A stretch of 64,000 nt of DNA from an uncultured virus (IMG/VR IMGVR_UViG_3300005193_000001). Its lineage: Duplodnaviria > Heunggongvirae > Uroviricota > Caudoviricetes. Made by a program: the position numbers and the translations under genes. Position 1 is the first letter of the stretch; every line of letters begins with the position of its first letter. Below are positions 11,998 through 50,221 of the stretch, piece by piece. Under the pieces are notes generated by a model that was not told where the DNA came from, searched no databases, and saw nothing but the letters and a program-made list of their open reading frames with translations. The stretch is taken from the IMG/VR virus record IMGVR_UViG_3300005193_000001, positions 186,001 to 250,000 of that record. One strand, written 5' to 3'.

Positions 11998-12672
11998 ATT
12001 TAGAAGATAACGAAAAACAACACCACCAAAATTAAAGCGGCGATGAATTTGTAGGGGTTCTGCGCGAAATCGTGCTGTACGACTTTCGGTATCGAAGACG
12101 GCTCTGGTTCCTTCTTCATGAAGACTAGTGGCGTTGATTCAAAGTTAGGTATCAGCCACCAGATCATCGTAGCAGTAGTAATTCTTTATCAATGAATCCG
12201 CCATTAGGTCTCCCATAGAATGCAAGTTTTCAGCATCAACGTCGAAAGCCACGCAGAAGAGAAATCCAAGCTTTCCGGACATTTCGGAGTTCTTGTACTT
12301 TCTTTTCCAATGCAGGTATTCGATAAGCCCGACCTCGGAACTTCTATCTCCCGTTTCTCCTCCAGGCACAATCATCTTTTTTCGTCGGTATTTTTCGTTT
12401 ATGATGTATTTCGTTCAACACCAAAATCTCAAGCTTGTTCCAGCTTCAAGAAGGCTTTATACTGGTCAAGCCGGGTGGAATTAGCACCCGGCTTGACAAG
12501 ATTCTAAAAGAACCCGTTGTTTTTCAGTCGAAAAAACCCTTAGTTCTTAGCCTTGTAAGCTGCCATATGCCGAAAACTAGTAGCAAAGCAGCCAAGACGC
12601 CAACGACGACTTTTATCATCAAGGTAGTTGAACGGGTATGGCGGTAAATGTGACATTTCTAAACGTTCACTT

Positions 12673-13176
12673 CTAAATATTTTTCAGAACTTCGGAGCAA
12701 AATCTGAGTCCTAGATCCGCATTTTCTTCTTCCGCTACTTCGTGCAACTCTTCTTCCTCCAGAAGGGCGTGACGGCTTTTCTCCTCGTAATCGGAACCGT
12801 CTCCTGGAGCTCCGGTGGTCTCGTAATCCAAAACGTCAAATGCGAAGAAGCTCACCCTTTGCGTCGTCAGCTTCGTGTAAGGCATATACTTCATTTCTCT
12901 CAGAAGCCGAATTTTGTTTGGGTATACTGGAGTTTCTTCGCCCATTTCTCTTTGCAACGTCTCGAACACGTGTTCACCCTCTTCCTTAGTTCCGCACACT
13001 GGAGTCCAATAATGTTCGTTTTCTCCCTTGATCTGATAAGGAGTGCAGGGCTCCAAACGAACCACTATCTCTTTATTCACTCTTGGTAACATCATTACTG
13101 AATCCGCTTCGTGCACGAACTCGTAATGATCGTTCGAAAAGACTTTAAGATAATTACCTTCCCAAGCTAGTTCCAT
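12673..13176 (-). CDS. Nudix hydrolase
   Basis: Nudix box GTKEEGEHVFETLQREMGEET. Confidence 0.8.
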   Translation of the reverse strand: MELAWEGNYLKVFSNDHYEFVHEADSVMMLPRVNKEIVVRLEPCTPYQIKGENEHYWTPVCGTKEEGEHVFETLQREMGEETPVYPNKIRLLREMKYMPYTKLTTQRVSFFAFDVLDYETTGAPGDGSDYEEKSRHALLEEEELHEVAEEENADLGLRFCSEVLKNI

Positions 13177-23180: not shown

Positions 23181-24359
23181 TTATGTATCGTCTACAGTCC
23201 AGTCTTTGTCAAGCGCGTATGAAAGCTTGTCGGTGTTCATGTCCTTTATTCCTTCCCAGAAGTCGTCTATCTGGCCTGTAAGACGCTGGAAAAAGAGGCC
23301 ATGTATTTCGGAAACCGGAATGTCCTGAACCGCGAGAGCAAATTCCTTTCTCTCCTCGTGGTCGTCGGGGTCCACCTCGTCTCCGTCCAAACGCTCGTAT
23401 TTGACCTCGATCTTGCCCATGAGGTTCCGGAGGTCTTCTCTTACCTCTTCGAACACGTCCTTGTACTTGGGAAATGTGCCGACAAAATCGTCGGCTTCTT
23501 CGTTTTGGATAGCCTCGATGATCCCGTTTTTCTTTGATATGATGCTGTCCCGCATCTTGTGTCTGAGGACGTAACTTTCCTGCTTCACCTTGACCCTGCT
23601 CCAATCCCCATCAACAATCACGAAACCTTCATCGTCGGGATCAAGATCCTCGACTTTGTCCATAACGTCACTGTACGCGTCGATATCGAACCTGTCGGGA
23701 CGGTCGAAGAAATCGGGAGCGGTTTCTATATCCCTCTCCTTCAGAGTCTCTCTGTTACGAACGGCGAGAAGAACAATCCGGTCTTTGTGATAAGACTTGA
23801 CTACCCTGTTGAAGTCGGTACAAAGCTCGAACATGTAGCAGCAGTCTTCGTCAAGACTTTCCAGGGCATCAAGACCATAAATGCACTCGAACCTGTCCCA
23901 AAAAAGGTCGGCAAAAGTGTTACCCTCCCAATCCTTCTCGTACTTCTTCATCGATTCGTCCATCTGGACCGGGCCTTCGCCTTCGATGGTGCCGAGAGTG
24001 TGGGCTATCCAATCGTCTTGCCACCTGTATATTACAACGGCGGAGCCGTCAAGCTTCTCAAAGATCTCGGCACTGTCCCAATCTATGTCAACTGCGTGAT
24101 TTTCGGCAGCGTTGAAGAACTTAGGAAGGCTGCAAGACACGACCCTCCAACTCGGCTTTTCGAGGATTAAACCACGAGACTCTTGGCAGATTCTGTTACC
24201 GAGATCGGACTTGATCTGGTTGTACTTGAATCCAATACGACGAGCCTCTGGACCCGCACTTATGATAAGCTTGTACGGGTCTTTTTTGAGATCACCGAGA
24301 GAATGGTCGGGATCTCGTAGAAATTTTTGAATAGAAAGTGGCTTTTCTATAACCGACAT
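23181..24359 (-). CDS. T4 Rnl1-type RNA ligase
   Basis: ESRGLIL, PKFFN, motif I FEKLDGS, MFEL, EGFVIVD, RVKVKQESY. Confidence 0.9.
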   Translation of the reverse strand: MSVIEKPLSIQKFLRDPDHSLGDLKKDPYKLIISAGPEARRIGFKYNQIKSDLGNRICQESRGLILEKPSWRVVSCSLPKFFNAAENHAVDIDWDSAEIFEKLDGSAVVIYRWQDDWIAHTLGTIEGEGPVQMDESMKKYEKDWEGNTFADLFWDRFECIYGLDALESLDEDCCYMFELCTDFNRVVKSYHKDRIVLLAVRNRETLKERDIETAPDFFDRPDRFDIDAYSDVMDKVEDLDPDDEGFVIVDGDWSRVKVKQESYVLRHKMRDSIISKKNGIIEAIQNEEADDFVGTFPKYKDVFEEVREDLRNLMGKIEVKYERLDGDEVDPDDHEERKEFALAVQDIPVSEIHGLFFQRLTGQIDDFWEGIKDMNTDKLSYALDKDWTVDDT

Positions 24360-28063: not shown

Positions 28064-29046
28064 TTAATCGTCTTCTCCGATGCGACTAATAGTATGGACA
28101 CTTTTAGCAGGCATGTTAGTGCCCATAATGGTGTGTTTCAGGTCCCTTCGCTTCTTCATTTCAGCCTGTTCCGAAGGATCAATGCCGACCTCTCGAAGAC
28201 TGGAACCCGTCTCGATATCAAACGTGTACCTTTCATCCACGTCGATCCTGACTACCCCTCTGTCTCCACTAAGTTGGATTACGATGGAAGAGCGCGGATT
28301 GTCGTGGATGATGTCTACAATTTCCTGTTCCATTGTTAGCTGAAGTTATGATTAATAGAGCATGAAATTAGGTTGCGGCTGCATTGGAGGCACCGGAGGA
28401 GGAGCAGGAACATGCCGATCATTATTTTTAATCGACCTCTCGAAACTGACGACTTCTTGTATTTCAGTCATTTCTTCGTCAGAAGGAGCCCACTCCATCA
28501 CATCCTCGATCTCTTCGGGTTTGAAATCGCTAACCAGAAGAAGATTAGCATATATACTTTGTGCCTCGCTCAAATCCTTAATGTTAAGAATGTGTTCTTC
28601 GTATTCTGAAAGTTCTCCAACCTCGGGTGGAGGCGGAGGACTGCTAAAAAGCTCTTGCTGATTCATGATTTTACTTTACTAGTGATTCTCTTGTCACCTT
28701 CACCACCCCACTCCTTCCCGTCACTCTTCCGGAACTTGTTTCCGGCGTCGGTAACGATCTGGAATTTTCGGATTTCTTCTACGACCTCGAAGTCGGTTTC
28801 GTCCACAACGACTCGGTCTCCGACTTCAAGCTCTCGATAATCCTCAATCTCTCGAATTCGAAGAGATTCTCTATCTTCCGGTGGTTTGAAGGTTTCTACG
28901 AGTTCGCAATTTTCAATATCGTCTTCCCACTTTTCTTTGGGGGTGATGTAGTAAGAGCCTTCGAAAATGGTGTCCTCGTGAACATATATCACACGGTGTT
29001 CTCGAAGTGCTTTTCTCTCTGCAGCATCAAATACTTCTTGCTTCAT
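28064..29046 (-). other. three small hypothetical CDS (28064-28333, 28352-28666, 28663-29046)
   Basis: Coupled co-oriented ORFs. Confidence 0.6.
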
Positions 29047-31213
29047 TCTGCTTCTGGTCTAAGAATTTTTCGTTCATGGTGTCTTTAACATCCGAAATGC
29101 TCTCAACATCAATAAACTCACTATCGTCGCCGTACATTTCCGTGAAGTTCTCTTCGGAATTGTTACCTATATAGTAGCTAATAACCGAAATGTCGCTACG
29201 GCGGAAGTTCTCTATCTGCTTTTTCGTGTGTTCGAGAGCCGGGTCTCCGGAATAACGAACCCCTCCACTACGAGTAAAGTACGGCATTCCGTCTGAGAAG
29301 TTAACGAAGAAGGAATTTCGGCCTTGACTCCCTTCCAAGATCTTTTCTCTCATGGTTTCAAACGCAAGTCCCTCGGGCGTTGTTCCAGAGCCCTCGAAAT
29401 AAGGGAACACGTTCTTCACGTAGTCCATGGAGTCTCTCGCGCTATCGTAAGCGAGAAGAAGCAAGGGGCGCTTGTCACCGGAAACCTTACAGGTGGAACG
29501 AAAAGATACTTGGCATCTGAAGTTTCTGATCATGCTCGATGCCTGAGCGAGAGCAACGGCAGTCTTCACCGCTCGTGTAAACTTCCCCGCTCCGTTCATG
29601 GACCCGCTCGAATCAACGGAAACGTGTAGGAAACCTGACTGATACTCTTCAGTCTCTTCGGTGTAGAAGATGCGACTGGAATACCCAATTTCGGCAAGAA
29701 GGTTATCGTCGATCTTGCCCTTCCGCTTTCGGGTGTACTTTGTAGTTCTCTTCTCGTCAAAGACTCTGAGCTTGTTACCGAGAATCTTGCCCATTTCAAT
29801 ACCTTCTCGTACCGCATCCTCGGTGTCCGAATTCTTGGAATCTGCGACGGGATCAAGCTTGTCGCAATTGGACTGAAGAAATGACTCGGAGACTCCGCCG
29901 ACGAAGATAGAAGAGACGGAAACGTCGAAGCTGTCTTCGAAATCCGGCTGCATGGGGATAGCGGAAGAATCGGTGTCGTCGTCAGAATCGTCACTTCCAA
30001 CTTCGACCTCTTCAACGTCCGAATTTTCGAAGAATTCCACCTCCTCCAATTGCTCAGGATCGATATCATCCCCGGCTTCGCCTTCCATGTGCTCAATCTG
30101 GTCTTGCATCATTTCTTCGACGCCTTCCGGAAGACCGCCATCACCGTCGTCACCCTCTTCTCCTTCGTCGGAAGGATCTGCATCGCCTCCTCCAGACTGC
30201 CCAAACTTAGGGTCTACGTAGATATCTTCCAAGTGGTCAAGAATGACGCGGAAGATATCACAGGCAACTTCGAAGCTATCGCGACTTGAATCCAGACGGT
30301 CGATGTTGCCGACGTCCAAAATGTCGTCGATCTCGCGAAGTCCAGGAAGAGCATCCGGGTTCCATTCGGAGTTAGTGATGTTCGTAACCCGGAAAGCGTA
30401 AGAGTTCCAGTCGGGCTTGATGGAGAAGATATCAATGAACTTCTCCTTGACTTCCTGCTCTGGTGTACCGTCGTCCAGAGAATCGAGCGCGTCAGACGCC
30501 GCGTCTGCAAGAGAACCGGGGGCTTCCCGAGACTCTCGCAAAAGAACGTCACGAAGGATAGCACCCTTCTCAAGTTCCTCAACTACCTCTTCCCTACGGT
30601 CGTCATACTTGAATATCTCGGAAATCTCGTCGCTGTGCCAGTGGGTGTTATACATCTGGATGTAGTAGCCCCAATATCCGGGACGCCTGTTGTATGCCCA
30701 ATTATCTATCCACCTGTCTTCAACGACGTTCCAAAGAAGATGAAGAGCACGAGAAGCTTGCTCTTCGGGGTCAAGATCTGACTTCTTTCCCGTCTTGTTC
30801 TCGAACTCTTTGTACTCGTCGCTCTTTTTGACCTTAGGCTCCATTTTGTCCACAATGTCCTGTGGAACGATACTTCCGTCTTGGAGCTCGTTTAAAATAT
30901 CAAAGTCCGAAAGAACGACGTGACTCGACTCGTGAAGAGCGGTCCCGACTGTAGAATCGAAGTTCTCTCCGATCTCGCTGGGGATAGTAACAGTCTCTCC
31001 ATCGGTGTGGGCGTCCGGGCTTCCATCGGAAGAATCTCGAAACTCGACGTTCACGGATCGACCAGCCATGATCCGAACGAATTGGGAAATCTCCTTCTTG
31101 GCCGCGATGAACTCCTCGGTAGAGAATCCCTCTTCCGAATCCAGCCCACGCTTAACCGGGCTGTCGTCATCAAGCCAAAAATTGGCGTGCCTTTTTCTAC
31201 CGTTATATAACAT
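29027..31213 (-). CDS. vWA-domain protein with N-terminal HExxH (CobT-like partner of MoxR ATPase)
   Basis: AHTDG, ALHESSH, WNVVED, acidic linker, MIDAS VDSSGSM, GTTPEG, NFSDG. Confidence 0.88.
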   Translation of the reverse strand: MLYNGRKRHANFWLDDDSPVKRGLDSEEGFSTEEFIAAKKEISQFVRIMAGRSVNVEFRDSSDGSPDAHTDGETVTIPSEIGENFDSTVGTALHESSHVVLSDFDILNELQDGSIVPQDIVDKMEPKVKKSDEYKEFENKTGKKSDLDPEEQASRALHLLWNVVEDRWIDNWAYNRRPGYWGYYIQMYNTHWHSDEISEIFKYDDRREEVVEELEKGAILRDVLLRESREAPGSLADAASDALDSLDDGTPEQEVKEKFIDIFSIKPDWNSYAFRVTNITNSEWNPDALPGLREIDDILDVGNIDRLDSSRDSFEVACDIFRVILDHLEDIYVDPKFGQSGGGDADPSDEGEEGDDGDGGLPEGVEEMMQDQIEHMEGEAGDDIDPEQLEEVEFFENSDVEEVEVGSDDSDDDTDSSAIPMQPDFEDSFDVSVSSIFVGGVSESFLQSNCDKLDPVADSKNSDTEDAVREGIEMGKILGNKLRVFDEKRTTKYTRKRKGKIDDNLLAEIGYSSRIFYTEETEEYQSGFLHVSVDSSGSMNGAGKFTRAVKTAVALAQASSMIRNFRCQVSFRSTCKVSGDKRPLLLLAYDSARDSMDYVKNVFPYFEGSGTTPEGLAFETMREKILEGSQGRNSFFVNFSDGMPYFTRSGGVRYSGDPALEHTKKQIENFRRSDISVISYYIGNNSEENFTEMYGDDSEFIDVESISDVKDTMNEKFLDQKQNEARSI

Positions 31214-31217
31214 AATG

Positions 31218-32201
31218 CTATGTCATTTGGTTGGCGAAACGACGATCATCGGCACCAAAGAGATCATCGAAGGCTCCATCAGTGTCGATGATACCCTGAA
31301 TGACCTTGTTGGCGTACTCTCGACGGGAATCGTCTTCGAAGTAAGGAAGCACCTTCAAGCGAAGAGCTTCGTGAATTGTGTATCCGTCTCGAACCAAAGA
31401 CGCGACCTTGACGCTTTGGCGAGTTGACACAATGCGGTCAAGAACCGAATCAGATTCAGCTTCGAACCGGATTTGACCTACTACCGCAGCGATATTTTCA
31501 AGCTTCTCGTCGTCAACCTCGGGAAACTTGATCTGGAGCATATCGAACTCTTCCTCCTTGTCGAGAATATCGGCCTCGATAACGGAAAAACGCTCCCAAA
31601 TAGCTCGATCAAGCTCTCGCGCCGAAGTGTACTGAACGCCGACGTTAGCGGTGGCCTGAAAGCTGACGCCATCCGCCACGGGAATAACGTCCTGCTCGTG
31701 GGACTCGTCAAGCTGCAGATACCTCTGCTTCTCGTCGAGAACGGGCATCAGAATGTTCCAAGCGTCGGGATTTGCCCTCGTGATCTCGTCAAGGAGAATG
31801 GTCGCATTCTCCGTCCGAATGGCTTCGACGAACTTAGAGGGCTCAAATCGGGTGGTGCCGTCTTCGGCTTCGCGGGTGCCAACGAGAGTGGTTCGAGCGT
31901 CCTGTGTGGAACCGAGATTGAAGTGATAAAACGGGCGTCCGAGTGCTTTCGCCATTTCGATAACGAGCAAAGTCTTCCCCGTTCCGCTGGGACCCGTAAC
32001 GATGAGATCGTTTCCACGAAGAGACTCTCGTGCCGTATGTCTCCACTTCAGGGGATCAATCTTGTAATAATCAGGCTTCAATTCTTCGACCTTCTCCTGA
32101 AGAAAATATTGCATTCCGTCCACCGAATCCGGAGCCTCTATTAGCTCCGAATTCGAATCTTCGACGGTGGAGACAACATCAGTGACCTTTTCCTGGTTCA
32201 T
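31218..32201 (-). CDS. MoxR/CobS-like AAA+ ATPase
   Basis: GPSGTGKT, ILLDEITR, ATAN, LDRAIWERF, STRQ. Confidence 0.92.
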   Translation of the reverse strand: MNQEKVTDVVSTVEDSNSELIEAPDSVDGMQYFLQEKVEELKPDYYKIDPLKWRHTARESLRGNDLIVTGPSGTGKTLLVIEMAKALGRPFYHFNLGSTQDARTTLVGTREAEDGTTRFEPSKFVEAIRTENATILLDEITRANPDAWNILMPVLDEKQRYLQLDESHEQDVIPVADGVSFQATANVGVQYTSARELDRAIWERFSVIEADILDKEEEFDMLQIKFPEVDDEKLENIAAVVGQIRFEAESDSVLDRIVSTRQSVKVASLVRDGYTIHEALRLKVLPYFEDDSRREYANKVIQGIIDTDGAFDDLFGADDRRFANQMT

Positions 32202-37679: not shown

Positions 37680-37723
37680 TTACACGCGCAAAGAAGGGCT
37701 TGGTTTCGTTAAGCCTCTGTTAA
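37680..37723 (-). promoter_or_regulatory. ECF-like promoter with 11-bp repeat boxes
   Basis: TTAA-N7-TTAA-C-GAAAC-N16-CGTGTAA. Confidence 0.7.
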
Positions 37724-38869
37724 GCGAGAAAGAAGAACGTCTTTATCAGTCACTTCTTCCGAAAGTTGTACGCGATGAGCTTCGTCTAAAAGCTCACCGA
37801 TCTTCGGACCTTCCTCGAACCCGGCGTCCAAAAGATCCTGACCAGATAGCACGGACCTGAGAGGAACGTCGTCGGGCTCCGAAAAAAGAAGAGGGTTCAT
37901 GCCGAAAGCTCGAACCCCGATGTTGCGAGAGAGGTTCAAGACGTCGAAGAAATCGGCAAGCATTCTTCGCCTCTCGAATTCGGTCATTGTGAAGTCGAGA
38001 CCGTCGAGAAGCTCCGACGCCCTTCTCGCATCCGAAACGAGCCCATTTGGAAGCTTGAGAGCAACCTGTATATCGTCAAAATCGAGAGAAGTGTTGTTGT
38101 TTACGATCACGAAAAAGGCAACAAGCCTCTCGTGAACACCCTCCAAAGCCTCAATCATTGAAAACCAACGAAACACAGGCTCTCCAAACACGTCTTCAAG
38201 AATACCAAGATCTACCAGCCCTTCCAGGAACTGACTCGGCCTCTGGTCCTGAAATGCCTTCTTGATCTCCATAAACACGCGCTCTTCGGAAACGTTCTCT
38301 ATAACCTCAGGGGCCACACTCTCCATCGCGCCCCACTCGTCACTTCTGATATCGAAACCGAACCGGGACGCAAATCGAAGGGCACGAATTACGCGCAAAA
38401 AATCTTCTCGGAACCTCCGTTCAGGATCTCCGACCGTGCTGACGACACCTTGATGAATGTGATCCCAGCCTCCAAAGGGGTCGATTACTTCGTCACCATC
38501 GAAGGCCATGGCATTGATCGTGAAATCCCGTCGAGCCAGATCTTCTTCTACCGAATCTGCAAACTCCACGGTGGCATTACGGCCATCGGTAGAAACGTCA
38601 CGACGGAAAGTAGTGATTTCGAATTCTCCGCCGTCTTCCGTAATAGCAGTAACGGTTCCGTGACCAATGCCCGTCTCTACGACGTTCATACCCTCGGCTT
38701 CGCACTTTTCCATCGTTACTTCCGGAACGTCAGAAGTGGCAAGGTCAATGTCATCGGATTCTCGACCTACAATGGAGTCTCGAACTGCGCCGCCGACTAC
38801 ATGCACGTCGGACAAAAAGTCGAATCTATCGACCGCATCCTGAACGAGAACCGAAGTGGAATTCATCAC
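37709..38869 (-). CDS. cca: CCA-adding tRNA nucleotidyltransferase (class II)
   Basis: VVGGAVRD..DIDLAT, EITTFR, DLARRDFTINAMA, EDFLR template motif. Confidence 0.93.
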   Translation of the reverse strand: MMNSTSVLVQDAVDRFDFLSDVHVVGGAVRDSIVGRESDDIDLATSDVPEVTMEKCEAEGMNVVETGIGHGTVTAITEDGGEFEITTFRRDVSTDGRNATVEFADSVEEDLARRDFTINAMAFDGDEVIDPFGGWDHIHQGVVSTVGDPERRFREDFLRVIRALRFASRFGFDIRSDEWGAMESVAPEVIENVSEERVFMEIKKAFQDQRPSQFLEGLVDLGILEDVFGEPVFRWFSMIEALEGVHERLVAFFVIVNNNTSLDFDDIQVALKLPNGLVSDARRASELLDGLDFTMTEFERRRMLADFFDVLNLSRNIGVRAFGMNPLLFSEPDDVPLRSVLSGQDLLDAGFEEGPKIGELLDEAHRVQLSEEVTDKDVLLSRLTEA

Positions 38870-48900: not shown

Positions 48901-49257
48901 AGACGACTCCATTAGAAACCATACAATTTCCGACCTTGAAGACGAGGAAGAAGCTTACAAGAAGGGCCGTTTACACGCCCTTAATGCCGTCATGTTCTGC
49001 GAAGAGCTCATTGAGGAACTGAAATGACTTACTACAGAAACAAGGACAGACACAAAGAAGTCTTTCGGATTTCAGAAAGTGGTGAAATTTCGAAGCGGGT
49101 CGTAGACACCGAAAAGAAAGACGGCGAGATTCGTACCGTCTTCAAGTATTACAACAGCGGCCAACTCAGATACCACAAGCTTGATTCTGCGGACGAACTC
49201 GAAGAAGTGAGTCCAGAAGAGGTCGGGACTCACAAGCAGCTTGTTAGCAGCGTTTGA
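45946..49257 (+). other. operon-like run of about 10 small hypothetical CDS
   Basis: Overlapping stop/start junctions; includes TPGPW-type proteins. Confidence 0.65.
46932..47372 (+). CDS. papain/C39-like cysteine peptidase-fold protein
   Basis: Q..GDCFRACVASVL..HGVV..IVHDPHP Cys-His-Asp arrangement. Confidence 0.55.
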   Translation: MKKVDQTKLIDDPGTGDCFRACVASVLELPLRAVPHVCGDRLRGYEIELNGWSVDSWFMNLKTWAKLVGLDTEIVKSVEDWKGRDIRGNHVIASGPSPRSPEDTLHGVVMDTNESIVHDPHPSRAGIEKVQDYTLFFDIDESVHSP

Positions 49258-49267
49258 ACGGGTCGAT

Positions 49268-49450
49268 GGAGAGGTGGCGCAGTTGGAAAAGCGCATGGGG
49301 GCTCTCCCAACACTTACCGCCGACTAGCTATCGACACTTGGGGGTGTTGTGAACCTTACTGCCACGAGGCGTTGGGTTAGCTACCACGACGGCACTCGTG
49401 GTTCGGTGGGAAAGTGCCACCGGGCGTGGATTCAATTCCCACCCTCTCCA
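49268..49450 (+). ncRNA. tRNA-like RNA with 116-nt structured insertion
   Basis: Acceptor GGAGAGG/CCTCTCC-A, D-arm GCGC-AGTTGGAAAA-GCGC, T-arm GTGGA-TTCAATT-CCCAC, 4-nt anticodon loop. Confidence 0.7.
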
Positions 49451-49484
49451 CTCTATATTGCATCAACGATCTACAACCAGTCAA

Positions 49485-49580
49485 ATGTCCAGCGTCCATC
49501 ATGCCGGGGGTCAGAAGGGTTGCTTGTTAGGCATTGTCGTTATTGTCGTTTTTACCATCCTTACGCTCGTCACCGCGTAA
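49485..49580 (+). CDS. 31-aa membrane peptide
   Basis: MSSVHHAGGQKGCLLGIVVIVVFTILTLVTA after A/C-rich leader. Confidence 0.5.
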   Translation: MSSVHHAGGQKGCLLGIVVIVVFTILTLVTA

Positions 49581-49584
49581 GATC

Positions 49585-49636
49585 TTCACACGTGCTTCAC
49601 ACGCGCACGGAACCCGCATGCATGAGGCGCGTTAAA
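49585..49636 (+). promoter_or_regulatory. ECF-like promoter with 11-bp repeat boxes
   Basis: TTCA-N7-TTCA..GGAAC-N16-CGTTAAA. Confidence 0.65.
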
Positions 49637-49675
49637 GAAGGTGCAATTATCTTTCACCAACCACCGCTTTACGCC

Positions 49676-50221
49676 ATGAGAGGTTCTATCCAGGACACGT
49701 TGCCGAAAACGGAACTTTACAACGCCATGCAGGGTCCCGAGACCGGAGACAAGTCCGGTGCCGACGAAGGATGCTGCGTAGCGTGCAACCGCGAACTCGC
49801 TGACCCTTCGTTCGACGTTTGCGACGAGTGCGCGAAGAAGCTCGATGGCAACCCCGATTCGTCTCCGAAGGCCGGAACCAGCGTTGACGGGTACGACCCC
49901 AAGGACGTGGTACGGCTTCGGGAAGCTAACAACGCCCACAATGCAGCCGAAATCTTGGCTTCGATGATTCGGGACAAGTTTTTGATGGACGACGAGCACG
50001 ACGATTTGGTGCGAGTCGTGCACGGGGAAGACCGGAGCAGTGTCGTTTGGCCTTCGGGTCCATTCGAGTGGACTTTGGACGTCACAGACGGTTACGTGAT
50101 CGGTTCCACCGAGTTCGCGGATACCATGGGCCGCTCCAGTTCCGAGGTCTTTCCCGTTGACAGTGCGCACCTGCACGTCGAGCCTTACAACAACGTTTCT
50201 CTCTGCTTTTACGACAATTAA
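49676..50221 (+). CDS. hypothetical protein with CxxC..CxxC motif
   Basis: Start MRGSIQ; CVAC..CDEC; VVWPSGPFEW. Confidence 0.7.
   Translation: MRGSIQDTLPKTELYNAMQGPETGDKSGADEGCCVACNRELADPSFDVCDECAKKLDGNPDSSPKAGTSVDGYDPKDVVRLREANNAHNAAEILASMIRDKFLMDDEHDDLVRVVHGEDRSSVVWPSGPFEWTLDVTDGYVIGSTEFADTMGRSSSEVFPVDSAHLHVEPYNNVSLCFYDN

What the first reader, a model, noticed from the sequence alone, without database searches (positions are those of the whole stretch)
49268..49450. 183-nt tRNA mimic: intact acceptor, D and T arms, no anticodon, large structured insert
Seen in sequence: Ser/Leu-like acceptor GGAGAGG/CCTCTCC with A73, U8, a 4-bp D-stem with A14 and G18G19, and a TTCAATT T-loop, so the elbow is retained. 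The anticodon arm is TGGGG-GCTC-TCCCA with only a 4-nt loop. It is followed by 116 nt carrying hairpins (49332-49349, 49384-49401, 49404-49422) and a possible GGCACT/AGTGCC pseudoknot. It lies alone in the early-gene region, 37 kb from the tRNA array. It has no G3-U70 or tag ORF, so it is not tmRNA. Inference: a decoy for anticodon nucleases or synthetases, an RNase P/CCA-matured carrier for a regulatory RNA, or a tRNA with a non-canonical intron.
Basis: partly seen in the sequence, partly recalled or inferred. Interest (0 to 1): 0.78.

Follow-up and report, generated by a model that had tools for sequence, protein, structure and literature searches.

The report
Phage serine-tRNA mimic without anticodon
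A giant phage from salt brines carries a 183-base gene shaped like a serine tRNA, but its anticodon loop is gone and extra hairpins fill its middle, so it cannot read codons and is either a tRNA look-alike with another job or a decaying gene.

Summary
Window 49268-49450 (+) has a perfect 7-bp acceptor stem, U8, a 4-bp D arm, a T arm, A73 and the elbow contacts. A tRNA-feature descriptor hit it once in the real genome and 0 times in 200 shuffled genomes.

It is not a decoder. The anticodon-arm position holds a 5-bp hairpin with a 4-nt loop. ARAGORN's 'tRNA-Pro with 86-nt intron' call is a forced fit, and no Rfam family reaches threshold.

New here: its acceptor stem and T-arm 3' half match bacterial tRNA-Ser only (113 of 113). 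Hairpin 49403-49423 sits where the tRNA-Ser variable arm sits. About 93 nt (two hairpins) are inserted between the anticodon arm and the variable arm. G53, A59 and G73 have changed.

The host phage is a 263-kb T4-like jumbo phage from brine. It has 47 tRNAs, a CCA-adding enzyme, an RNA ligase and a second anticodon-less tRNA.

No diverged homologue could be reached and no RNA data exist, so neither conservation nor expression is shown.

Best reading (0.42): a tRNA-processed, non-decoding class-II tRNA mimic. Main rival (0.35): a decaying tRNA-Ser pseudogene. The closest analogue is T4 RNA C, but the element is not a member of that family.

The parts
49268..49274 (+). Acceptor stem, 5' strand GGAGAGG (G1-C72, G2-C71, A3-U70; no G3-U70)
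   Evidence: The base before it (-1) is T, the commonest -1 base of this phage's tRNAs (20 of 47).
49275..49295 (+). U8, G9, the D arm and A26. D stem: 49277-80/49291-94, 4 bp, with C11-G24. D loop: AGUUGGAAAA with A14, G15, G18G19, A21.
49296..49309 (+). H1, a hairpin in the anticodon-arm position: UGGGG-GCUC-UCCCA, 5 bp (one G-U) with a 4-nt loop. No U33, no 7-nt loop.
   Evidence: One search found no 5-bp/7-nt-loop hairpin in the right context.
49310..49352 (+). H2, an imperfect hairpin region. Its structure is not significant on its own (z = -1.2).
49353..49360 (+). Predicted single-stranded linker (AACCUUAC)
49361..49402 (+). H3, a 17-bp hairpin with small bulges and apical loop UUAGC. 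H3 and H4 together give z = -4.1.
49403..49423 (+). H4, a 6-7-bp hairpin with loop GAAAGUG, in the place of the class-II (tRNA-Ser type) variable arm. It is followed by 2 unpaired nt (G49424, C48 = 49425).
   Evidence: Bacterial tRNA-Ser has 1 unpaired nt here in 112 of 113.
49426..49442 (+). T arm GUGGA-UUCAAUU-CCCAC: 4 good pairs plus the A53.C61 mismatch; U54, U55, C56, A57, A58 present.
   Evidence: The tRNA-Ser consensus is GUGGG-UUCAAAU-CCCAC.
49443..49450 (+). Acceptor stem 3' strand CCUCUCC and discriminator A73. CCA is not encoded (CUC follows).
   Evidence: Only 3 of the phage's 47 tRNAs encode CCA.
49024..49257 (+). Upstream 77-aa ORF of the same strand block. Its stop codon lies 10 nt before the element.
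   Evidence: no Pfam family
49486..49581 (+). 31-aa hydrophobic ORF, 35 nt after the element
   Evidence: Read; not tested
37709..38869 (-). Phage CCA-adding enzyme (PolyA_pol head and RNA-binding domains). It could add the missing CCA.
   Evidence: PF01743, 8.1e-28; PF12627, 7e-10
23181..24359 (-). Rnl1-type RNA ligase (tRNA repair context)
   Evidence: PF09511, 1.3e-13

Best explanation
The element is a gene for a non-decoding tRNA look-alike derived from a bacterial-type serine tRNA.

Shown from sequence:
- It keeps the acceptor stem, the D arm, the T loop, the elbow and core contacts, and a hairpin (H4) in the place of the class-II variable arm.
- The anticodon arm is reduced to a 5-bp stem capped by 4 nt.
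- About 93 nt (H2, a linker and the 17-bp H3) are inserted between the anticodon arm and the variable arm, on the solvent side of the L shape.

Inferred mechanism:
1. It is transcribed with the surrounding + strand small genes.
2. RNase P cuts it at U(-1)/G1.
3. It is trimmed to A73 and given CCA by the host enzyme or the phage's own CCA-adding enzyme.
4. It accumulates as a stable RNA of about 186 nt that cannot enter decoding.
5. It then acts through its tRNA shape in one of two ways. It could engage proteins that recognise class-II tRNAs without reading the anticodon: SerRS, LeuRS, or enzymes that act on the acceptor end and use the tRNA-Ser variable arm. Or the tRNA body could serve as a processing and stability scaffold that displays H2/H3.

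The identity signals are mixed. Ser-type: G1-C72, G2-C71, A3-U70, C11-G24 and the long arm. Not Ser-type: A73 and the 2-nt spacer after the arm. Which amino acid, if any, is attached is open.
For: - **tRNA body beyond chance:** (1 hit in the real genome, 0 in 200 shuffled genomes; 1 ARAGORN call in 30 shuffled genomes).
- **Serine-tRNA origin:** of 120 bacterial loci sharing GGAGAGGT...TTCAAWTCCCACCCTCTCC, ARAGORN called 113 tRNAs with that 5' end, and all 113 are tRNA-Ser.
- **H4 as variable arm:** it has the size and place of their variable arm, which has 4-7 bp and spans 15-22 nt.
- **Structured insert:** H3 + H4 give z = -4.1, with 0 of 200 shuffles folding as well.
- **Non-coding setting:** the element fills most of a 228-nt gap in a block of tightly packed or overlapping + strand ORFs. 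No credible ORF covers it. The 60% homologue of the downstream protein aligns only from residue 22 of the 199-aa form.
- **Maturation context:** T at -1, as in 20 of 47 phage tRNAs; no encoded CCA, as in 44 of 47; the phage has a CCA-adding enzyme and an Rnl1-type ligase.
- **A second case in the same genome:** genome 160358-160460 scores 55.7 bits on the Rfam tRNA model with 35 nt in place of the anticodon loop.
- **Precedents read in papers (passages only):** T4 RNA C and RNA D are stable RNAs of unknown function from the tRNA region (PMC3014915, PMC9697503). T4 RNA C has a T arm and an acceptor-like stem with covarying pairs. A CDS-less tmRNA-like RNA of phage DS6A inhibits host tmRNA (PMC11915505). 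Serine identity rests on the variable arm and not the anticodon, and G73 blocks LeuRS and TyrRS (PMC9976931). [quoted passage not shown]
Against: - There is no evidence of expression and no evidence of conservation. Every copy found is 100% identical and comes from the same phage.
- None of the related phage records searched has it: 29 IMG/VR records, LR756508.1, and three complete relatives scanned again with a general descriptor.
- The neighbouring genes are near-orphans, so this is a fast-changing region where relics can persist.
- Three positions that are constant in the 113 tRNA-Ser genes have changed: G53 to A, which breaks the near-universal G53-C61 pair; A59 to U; and G73 to A.
- H2 is not significantly structured.
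- One decoy gene would have to compete with the whole tRNA pool (inference).
- The element lies 37 kb from all other tRNA genes and on the opposite strand.
Confidence: 0.42

Rival explanations
1. It is a decaying pseudogene. A captured tRNA-Ser gene lost its anticodon loop, took up about 93 nt of unrelated sequence and is drifting. It has no function of its own.
For: - A53.C61, U59 and A73 differ from a 113-of-113 consensus.
- The anticodon loop has only 4 nt.
- No homologue was found in any searched collection.
- The neighbourhood consists of near-orphan genes.
- The element is on the opposite strand to, and far from, the 47 working tRNAs.
- The Rfam tRNA model gives no hit at E <= 1.
Against: - All 7 acceptor pairs and all 4 D-stem pairs are intact, as are U8-A14, G15-C48, G18G19/U55C56 and U54-A58. 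Only one of the three changes hits a paired position.
- The insert contains a 17-bp hairpin stacked on the variable-arm hairpin, with z = -4.1.
- The insert is not a repeat or a mobile hairpin found elsewhere in the genome.
- The element is not a recent copy of any of the phage's own tRNAs (best match 29 of 39 compared positions).
Confidence: 0.35
2. It is a cis-acting processing signal. The tRNA shape serves only as an RNase P / RNase Z cutting site that separates the upstream and downstream parts of the early polycistronic mRNA (tRNA punctuation). The excised RNA has no role.
For: It has the same orientation as, and a tight fit between, + strand ORFs: 10 nt after one stop codon and 35 nt before the next small ORF. 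The acceptor stem, T arm and elbow, the parts RNase P recognises (established knowledge), are the parts that are kept.
Against: A minimal acceptor/T-arm hairpin would be enough for this. That does not explain the retained D arm, the core contacts, the variable-arm hairpin or the 93-nt insert. No other such punctuation element was found in the genome (descriptor; model R1).
Confidence: 0.1
3. It is an intron-containing tRNA that is spliced into a working decoder. This covers ARAGORN's tRNA-Pro(CGG) with an 86-nt intron, or another excision.
For: - ARAGORN -i0,300 calls it, and such calls are rare in shuffled sequence (1 in 30 genomes).
- The nearest complete relative has tRNA-Lys and tRNA-Arg genes with 193- and 175-nt group-I-like inserts in the anticodon loop.
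- The phage has an RNA ligase.
Against: - The called anticodon stem has a G.G mismatch and two G-U pairs. C37 replaces the usual purine. The product would be a 98-nt tRNA-Pro with a long variable arm, which tRNA-Pro lacks.
- No segment next to the variable arm or the T arm can pair with UGGGG (read).
- No group I intron match at E <= 10.
- There is no similarity to the relative's inserts: local scores of 15 and 16 against shuffle means of 16.4 and 16.6.
- An insert of 86-116 nt is shorter than those 175-193-nt inserts.
- The acceptor stem and T arm are serine-type, not proline-type.
Confidence: 0.05
4. It is a miniature tmRNA-like RNA. A tRNA-like domain carries a short tag frame (GCU at 49327 through to UAG at 49378-80, which lies in the H3 loop), or acts as a tag-less inhibitor of host trans-translation.
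For: - The Rfam tmRNA model is the best of only two weak matches (16.5 bits, covering the T arm and 3' end).
- The topology is a tRNA body with helices in place of a decoding arm.
- The stop codon of the one long open frame falls in a hairpin loop, as is recalled for tmRNA helix 5.
- A tag-less phage tmRNA-like RNA is known (PMC11915505, passage).
Against: - The score is far below the gathering score of 47, and the alignment uses the wrong 5' strand.
- A3-U70 replaces the alanine determinant G3-U70.
- It has a full D arm, which tmRNA lacks (recalled).
- ARAGORN finds no tmRNA at its default settings. At a lowered threshold it finds only inconsistent ones with 'tag not identified'.
- The phage has no SmpB.
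- The acceptor stem and T arm are serine-tRNA type.
Confidence: 0.05

Closest known systems
Bacterial tRNA-Ser (class II tRNA)
   Same: - The acceptor stem GGAGAGG/CCUCUCC and the T-arm 3' half are identical to those of tRNA-Ser genes from many phyla (113 of 113).
- C11-G24 is present.
- A 6-7-bp hairpin sits directly before the T arm, where the long variable arm sits.
   Different: - There is no 7-nt anticodon loop.
- About 93 nt are inserted between the anticodon arm and the variable arm.
- A73 replaces G73 (G in 113 of 113).
- A53 replaces G53, and U59 replaces A59.
- The D stem has 4 bp, against 3 bp in the printed examples.
- 2 unpaired nt follow the arm, against 1 in 112 of 113.
Phage T4 RNA C (species 1 RNA, rnaC), 139 nt
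   Same: - It is a small RNA of a T4-like phage with a canonical T arm and an acceptor-like terminal stem, and with long hairpins in between.
- It has no anticodon.
- Its function is still unknown (PMC3014915 and PMC9697503, passages).
   Different: - It is not homologous by the test run here. A covariance model built from 4 rnaC sequences gives no match at the element.
- rnaC lacks a D arm and has two U.U mismatches in its terminal stem.
- rnaC lies inside the tRNA cluster. This element has a full D arm and core, and lies 37 kb from the cluster on the other strand.
tmRNA, and the CDS-less tmRNA-like RNA of mycobacteriophage DS6A
   Same: A tRNA-like acceptor/T-arm domain with other structure where the anticodon arm would decode. 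A phage precedent for a non-coding version that interferes with a host tRNA-like system (PMC11915505, passage).
   Different: No G3-U70; a full D arm; 16.5 bits against a gathering score of 47; serine-type rather than alanine-type acceptor stem.
Group I intron-bearing tRNA genes (for example the two in the relative LR756508.1)
   Same: A tRNA gene body interrupted by a structured insert of 100-200 nt, in a related jumbo phage lineage.
   Different: Those inserts lie inside a proper anticodon loop, after a U, and end in G, flanked by good 5-bp anticodon stems. Here no such stem flanks the insert, the insert is shorter, and it is unrelated in sequence.
Engineered tRNA scaffolds for recombinant RNA, and herpesvirus tRNA-like/miRNA chimeras
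   Same: A tRNA body used to obtain processing and stability for an attached structured RNA. This is recalled. PMC3753655 was seen only as an entry in a search listing, where the start of its abstract describes a generic approach for expressing recombinant RNA in E. coli without mentioning a tRNA scaffold.
   Different: Those are engineered or eukaryotic-virus cases. In the engineered scaffolds the cargo replaces the anticodon loop; here the anticodon arm is capped and the cargo sits in the variable region.

Membership tests
tRNA (Rfam RF00005; decoding tRNA) | 7-bp acceptor stem, D arm and T arm with elbow contacts | tested here: met
   Caveat: an A53.C61 mismatch in the T stem.
tRNA (Rfam RF00005; decoding tRNA) | Anticodon arm with a 7-nt loop, U33 and purine 37, in the correct position | tested here: not met
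   H1 has a 4-nt loop. The only 5-bp/7-nt hairpin with U33 and R37 (49341-49357) is in the wrong context.
tRNA (Rfam RF00005; decoding tRNA) | Score at or above the family's gathering score | tested here: not met
   No match at the element at the gathering score or at E <= 1 over the whole genome. ARAGORN at default settings does not call it.
Bacterial tRNA-Ser | G1-C72, G2-C71 and the serine-type acceptor stem / T arm | tested here: met
   113 of 113 tRNAs with this acceptor stem / T arm are tRNA-Ser. Determinants as given in PMC9976931 (passage).
Bacterial tRNA-Ser | Long variable arm in the serine orientation (1 unpaired nt before the T stem) | tested here: inconclusive
   The hairpin is present at the right place with 6-7 bp, but 2 unpaired nt follow it, against 1 in 112 of 113.
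Bacterial tRNA-Ser | Discriminator G73 | tested here: not met
   A at 49450. G73 in 113 of 113.
tmRNA (RF00023) | G3-U70 alanine determinant in the acceptor stem | tested here: not met
   A3-U70.
tmRNA (RF00023) | Family score, and a tag reading frame recognised by ARAGORN | tested here: not met
   16.5 bits against 47. No tmRNA at default settings. At a lowered threshold, only inconsistent calls with 'tag not identified'.
tRNA gene with a group I intron | Insert inside the anticodon loop, flanked by a good anticodon stem; catalytic core | tested here: not met
   The called stem has a G.G mismatch and two G-U pairs. No Intron_gpI match at E <= 10, although the relative's group-I-like inserts also gave no match at E <= 1. 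No similarity to those inserts.
T4 RNA C (species 1 RNA) | Match to a covariance model of rnaC; location in the tRNA cluster | tested here: not met
   Model R2 (4 sequences): no match at the element with filters off at E <= 10, and none in the genome at E <= 1. The element is 37 kb from the cluster.
Bacterial Y RNA (YrlA) with Ro60 | Ro60/TROVE partner gene; YrlA family match | tested here: not met
   No TROVE domain in the phage. No YrlA match in 49100-49650 at E <= 10.
Any expressed small RNA | A discrete transcript with defined ends | not testable with these tools
   No RNA run was listed for this sequence. Only DNA contigs could be laid.

The most novel reading that the evidence does not exclude
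The phage makes a chargeable but non-decoding class-II tRNA mimic. It has a hybrid Ser/Leu identity: a serine-type acceptor stem and long arm, but A73 and a 2-nt spacer after the arm that are not serine-type. It is matured by RNase P and the phage's CCA-adding enzyme. It works as a high-affinity decoy or inhibitor for proteins that read tRNA shape and the acceptor end rather than the anticodon. Candidates are host defence toxins of the MenT/AbiEii nucleotidyltransferase kind, which use the tRNA-Ser variable arm, or SerRS/LeuRS themselves. Together with the second anticodon-less tRNA in the same genome and T4 RNA C, this would define a class of phage tRNA decoys and give the 50-year-old RNA C question a testable answer.
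Probability: 0.12. Interest if true: 0.8.

Novelty: new variant of a known kind. Interest (0 to 1): 0.45.

Why it matters
Phage tRNA genes are now seen as weapons against host defences that attack tRNAs. T4's tRNA-like RNA C has had no known function since the 1970s. A serine-tRNA body that keeps every feature needed for folding, processing and anticodon-independent recognition, but has lost decoding, would be a clean natural example of a tRNA used for something other than translation. It comes with simple assays: a northern blot, CCA addition, and charging by SerRS or LeuRS.

If it is instead a relic, it shows how tRNA genes decay in jumbo phages. It also warns that intron-tolerant tRNA finders will annotate such relics as 'tRNA-Pro with intron'.

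Tried and rejected
**Searches for homologues (all empty apart from copies of the same phage)**
- blastn of 49000-49700 against GenBank phages: no match.
- Exact 28-mer in IMG/VR: none.
- The downstream 347-aa protein in IMG/VR, as a single protein and as a 3-sequence alignment: none.
- Single-sequence covariance model R1: only the element itself in its own genome. 0 hits in 29 IMG/VR relatives of the capsid protein (30 handles given, one not held). 0 hits in LR756508.1.
- D-loop/T-loop pattern in IMG/VR: 4 loci, all chance.
- The same kind of pattern in metagenome contigs: 45 loci. Only L132 is real, and it is 100% identical over 2906 nt.
- General descriptor and ARAGORN -i on three complete relatives: no comparable element.
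- An alignment of the 199-aa protein family was too diverse to drive a locus search (error).
- Earlier notes of this scan: none.

**Sequencing runs**
- No RNA holder was listed.
- The four runs laid were all DNA contigs with 0 differences. Three of them, from other studies (hypersaline lake, sediment, saltern), held 158-281-nt pieces. This gave no variation and no transcript ends.

**Neighbouring proteins**
- No Pfam family.
- The 149-aa protein has no relative.
- The 347-aa protein: Atlas hits all below 0.9, and an AlphaFold model with pLDDT 49.8 that was too poor to search with.

**Partner genes in the phage**
- No SmpB, TROVE or class-II synthetase core. Only sub-threshold coiled-coil hits to the SerRS N-terminal domain.

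**Origin of the insert**
- No second copy in the genome. A 12-nt identity with the phage's tRNA-His is at chance level, E = 1.
- It is not a recent duplicate of any of the 47 tRNAs (alignment).

**Literature**
- Searches turned up no description of a tRNA-Ser-derived phage RNA of this architecture. These are word searches of an open-access library only.
Full report
**What is there**

The window is bases 186001-250000 of a 263,015-bp IMG/VR virus record. The virus is a T4-like jumbo myovirus. It has a gp23-type major head protein, portal, large terminase, two sheath-like proteins, a family-B DNA polymerase and ribonucleotide reductase. Its nearest GenBank relative by capsid protein is the uncultured 484-kb phage LR756508.1 at 65.6%, followed by Microcystis, Flavobacterium and Rhodothermus phages.

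The same sequence, without a single difference, occurs in contigs from brine, hypersaline-lake, sediment and saltern metagenomes of four studies.

The host is bacterial. This is an inference from the phage's class-II tRNA-Tyr (84 nt), which is a bacterial trait by established knowledge, and from its class-II type CCA-adding enzyme.

The genome has 47 ordinary tRNA genes, all on the minus strand between genome positions 50 kb and 198 kb.

**The observation**

- acceptor stem GGAGAGG/CCUCUCC (49268-74/49443-49), 7 perfect pairs, A3-U70
- U8
- D stem GCGC/GCGC with loop AGUUGGAAAA
- hairpin UGGGG-GCUC-UCCCA
- T loop UUCAAUU
- A73

The tertiary partners of a real tRNA core are also present: U8-A14, G15-C48, G18G19 opposite U55C56, U54-A58, A21.

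Two corrections are needed:
1. The fifth T-stem pair is A53.C61, not G53-C61.
2. The 49384-49401 hairpin competes with a longer 17-bp hairpin, 49361-49402, which both the unconstrained fold and the tRNA-constrained fold prefer. The proposed pseudoknot is therefore only a possible alternative pairing.

The tRNA-constrained fold costs 4.8 kcal/mol over the minimum (-76.7 against -81.5).

**Is it chance?**

- A descriptor made of general tRNA features hits the real genome once, at this element, and 200 dinucleotide-shuffled genomes not at all. It was written after seeing the element, so it is somewhat favourable.
- The whole element folds better than all 200 shuffles (z = -3.5). H3 plus H4 alone give z = -4.1. 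H2 alone is not significant (z = -1.2).

**What it is not**

*Not a decoder.*
- ARAGORN at default settings, the Rfam tRNA model at the gathering score, and the same model at E <= 1 over the whole genome all miss it.
- With introns allowed, ARAGORN reports 'tRNA-Pro(CGG), 86-nt intron'. That model needs an anticodon stem with one G.G mismatch and two G-U pairs, a C at position 37, and a 98-nt proline tRNA with a long variable arm.
- Nothing next to the variable arm or the T arm can pair with the UGGGG that follows A26, except the UCCCA of H1 itself (read).
- The only hairpin with a 7-nt loop, U33 and R37 (49341-49357) is in the wrong place.

*Not a group I intron case.*
- No group I intron or any other Rfam family appears at E <= 10, apart from a 16.5-bit tmRNA match (gathering score 47) that covers only the T arm and 3' end, and a 17.2-bit minus-strand match to Plastid-ycf2 (gathering score 65.7).
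- The nearest complete relative does have tRNA-Lys(UUU) and tRNA-Arg(UCU) genes with 193- and 175-nt inserts. These lie in proper anticodon loops, follow a U and end in G, and resemble each other (score 62 against a shuffle mean of 17). The element resembles neither (scores 15 and 16, at the shuffle mean).

*Not a tmRNA or a Y RNA.* It lacks G3-U70, and the phage has no SmpB and no Ro60.

*Not a member of the T4 RNA C family.* A covariance model of four rnaC sequences, whose T stem and terminal stem covary, finds nothing at the element.

**What it derives from**

A scan of one genome per bacterial species looked for the element's acceptor 5' strand plus T-loop/T-stem/acceptor 3' strand at normal tRNA spacing. 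ARAGORN called 113 tRNAs beginning GGAGAGGT in them:
- All 113 are tRNA-Ser (56 CGA, 25 GCU, 20 GGA, 11 UGA, 1 ACU), and all have G73.
- Their consensus 3' part is CGUGGGUUCAAAUCCCACCCUCUCCG. The element differs only at G53>A, A59>U and G73>A.
- Their variable region is 15-22 nt with a 4-7-bp stem, followed by one unpaired base in 112 of 113.

Hairpin H4 of the element (6-7 bp, loop GAAAGUG) lies in just that place but is followed by two unpaired bases.

So the element reads as a serine tRNA in this order: acceptor, D arm, a capped anticodon stem (H1), then about 93 extra nt (H2, an 8-9-nt linker, H3), then the variable arm (H4), T arm and acceptor.

The extra part is not repeated elsewhere in the genome. 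The element is not a recent copy of any of the phage's own tRNAs.

**Context**

- The element lies in a block of small, tightly packed + strand ORFs. It starts 10 nt after the stop codon of a 77-aa ORF and ends 35 nt before a 31-aa hydrophobic ORF.
- These neighbours have almost no relatives: none for the 149-aa protein, two for the 347-aa protein (both only in Logan assemblies), and one close relative for the 199-aa protein.
- The base before G1 is T, as in 20 of 47 phage tRNAs. CCA is not encoded, as in 44 of 47.
- The phage encodes a CCA-adding enzyme and an Rnl1-type RNA ligase in this window.
- The same genome holds a second tRNA without a usable anticodon loop, at genome 160358-160460 (minus strand). 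It scores 55.7 bits on the Rfam tRNA model, with 35 nt forming an extended hairpin where the loop should be.

**How it most likely works**

Shown: the shape-defining parts of a class-II tRNA are kept, the decoding part is not, and the insert is placed where it would not disturb the L shape.

Inferred: the RNA is transcribed with the early-type genes, cut by RNase P, trimmed, given CCA, and then stays as a stable RNA outside translation.

Serine identity depends on the variable arm and acceptor stem and not on the anticodon. In E. coli, G73 is a moderate determinant and blocks LeuRS and TyrRS (PMC9976931, passages). The element keeps the Ser-type stem and arm but has A73 and a longer spacer, so charging by SerRS or LeuRS is possible but unpredictable.

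[quoted passage not shown] Its family includes the abortive-infection toxin AbiEii (bioRxiv 10.64898/2026.01.19.700257; start of the abstract in a search listing only).

A decoy, an inhibitor or a scaffold role is therefore conceivable. I rate 'functional non-decoding mimic' at 0.42.

**The main rival**

A decaying tRNA-Ser pseudogene (0.35) explains several observations equally well:
- the broken G53-C61 pair
- A73
- the lost anticodon loop
- the lack of any homologue
- the orphan-gene neighbourhood

It does less well with the intact 7 + 4 stem pairs, the intact core contacts and the strongly folded H3/H4.

No tool available could separate the two readings. No RNA run holds the sequence, and the only relatives that might carry a diverged copy are in assemblies I could not read.

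**Comparison and novelty**

The nearest known thing by function is T4 RNA C, a tRNA-like stable RNA of unknown role (PMC3014915, PMC9697503 and PMC12685909, passages). By descent the nearest is tRNA-Ser.

A tRNA-Ser body with a capped anticodon stem and a multi-hairpin variable region did not turn up in my word searches of the open-access library. I class it as a new variant of a known kind (phage tRNA-like RNAs), of moderate interest until expression or conservation is shown.

Noticed in passing
Outside the window: genome 160358-160460 (-) = L141:1358-1460 (-): A second tRNA gene without a usable anticodon loop. It has a perfect cloverleaf body (Rfam tRNA 55.7 bits), but 35 nt forming an extended hairpin sit between the strands of the anticodon stem CGGGG/CCCCG. 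ARAGORN calls it tRNA-Glu(CUC) with a 29-nt intron and G33.
   Followed up: partly
Outside the window: genome 151425-151500 (-): A tRNA with anticodon CUA (amber-suppressor type; ARAGORN labels it 'Pyl'). The major head protein gene is intact under the standard code, so any TAG recoding would be partial.
   Followed up: no
window 49486-49581 (+): A 31-codon ORF encoding a hydrophobic, membrane-helix-like peptide directly downstream of the element.
   Followed up: no
L142 (LR756508.1) 12080-12348 and 12479-12730: The nearest complete relative has tRNA-Lys(UUU) and tRNA-Arg(UCU) genes with 193- and 175-nt inserts in the anticodon loop. The inserts follow a U, end in G, and are similar to each other. 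They look like very small group I introns, yet gave no Rfam Intron_gpI match at E <= 1.
   Followed up: partly
L142 (LR756508.1) 12878-13102 (+): A HEARO RNA (the RNA of IscB-type HNH systems) at 144 bits, directly after those tRNA genes in the relative.
   Followed up: no
window 23181-24359 (-), 37709-38869 (-), 29027-32201 (-): An Rnl1-type RNA ligase, a CCA-adding enzyme, and an AAA+ (CbbQ/MoxR-like) plus vWA protein pair in the window. The first two form a tRNA-repair and maturation toolkit alongside 47 tRNAs, only 3 of which encode CCA.
   Followed up: partly
L003:14422-17211 (-) (genome about 109.4-112.2 kb): The large terminase ORF is 929 aa. A middle part matches unrelated PHROG families, including one ribonucleotide-reductase family at residues 261-331. 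This may be an intein or another insertion.
   Followed up: no
L140:1409-1547 (-) (T4 rnaC) and relatives L287-L289: T4 RNA C has a canonical T arm and a 7-position terminal stem with two conserved U.U mismatches. Both stems show compensatory changes across four T-even phages. One GenBank record (MK327946) annotates the region as tRNA-Lys.
   Followed up: partly
window 49363-49374 vs genome 177714-177725: A 12-nt identity between the 5' strand of H3 and the D-stem/anticodon-stem part of the phage's tRNA-His. E = 1, so it is at chance level.
   Followed up: yes
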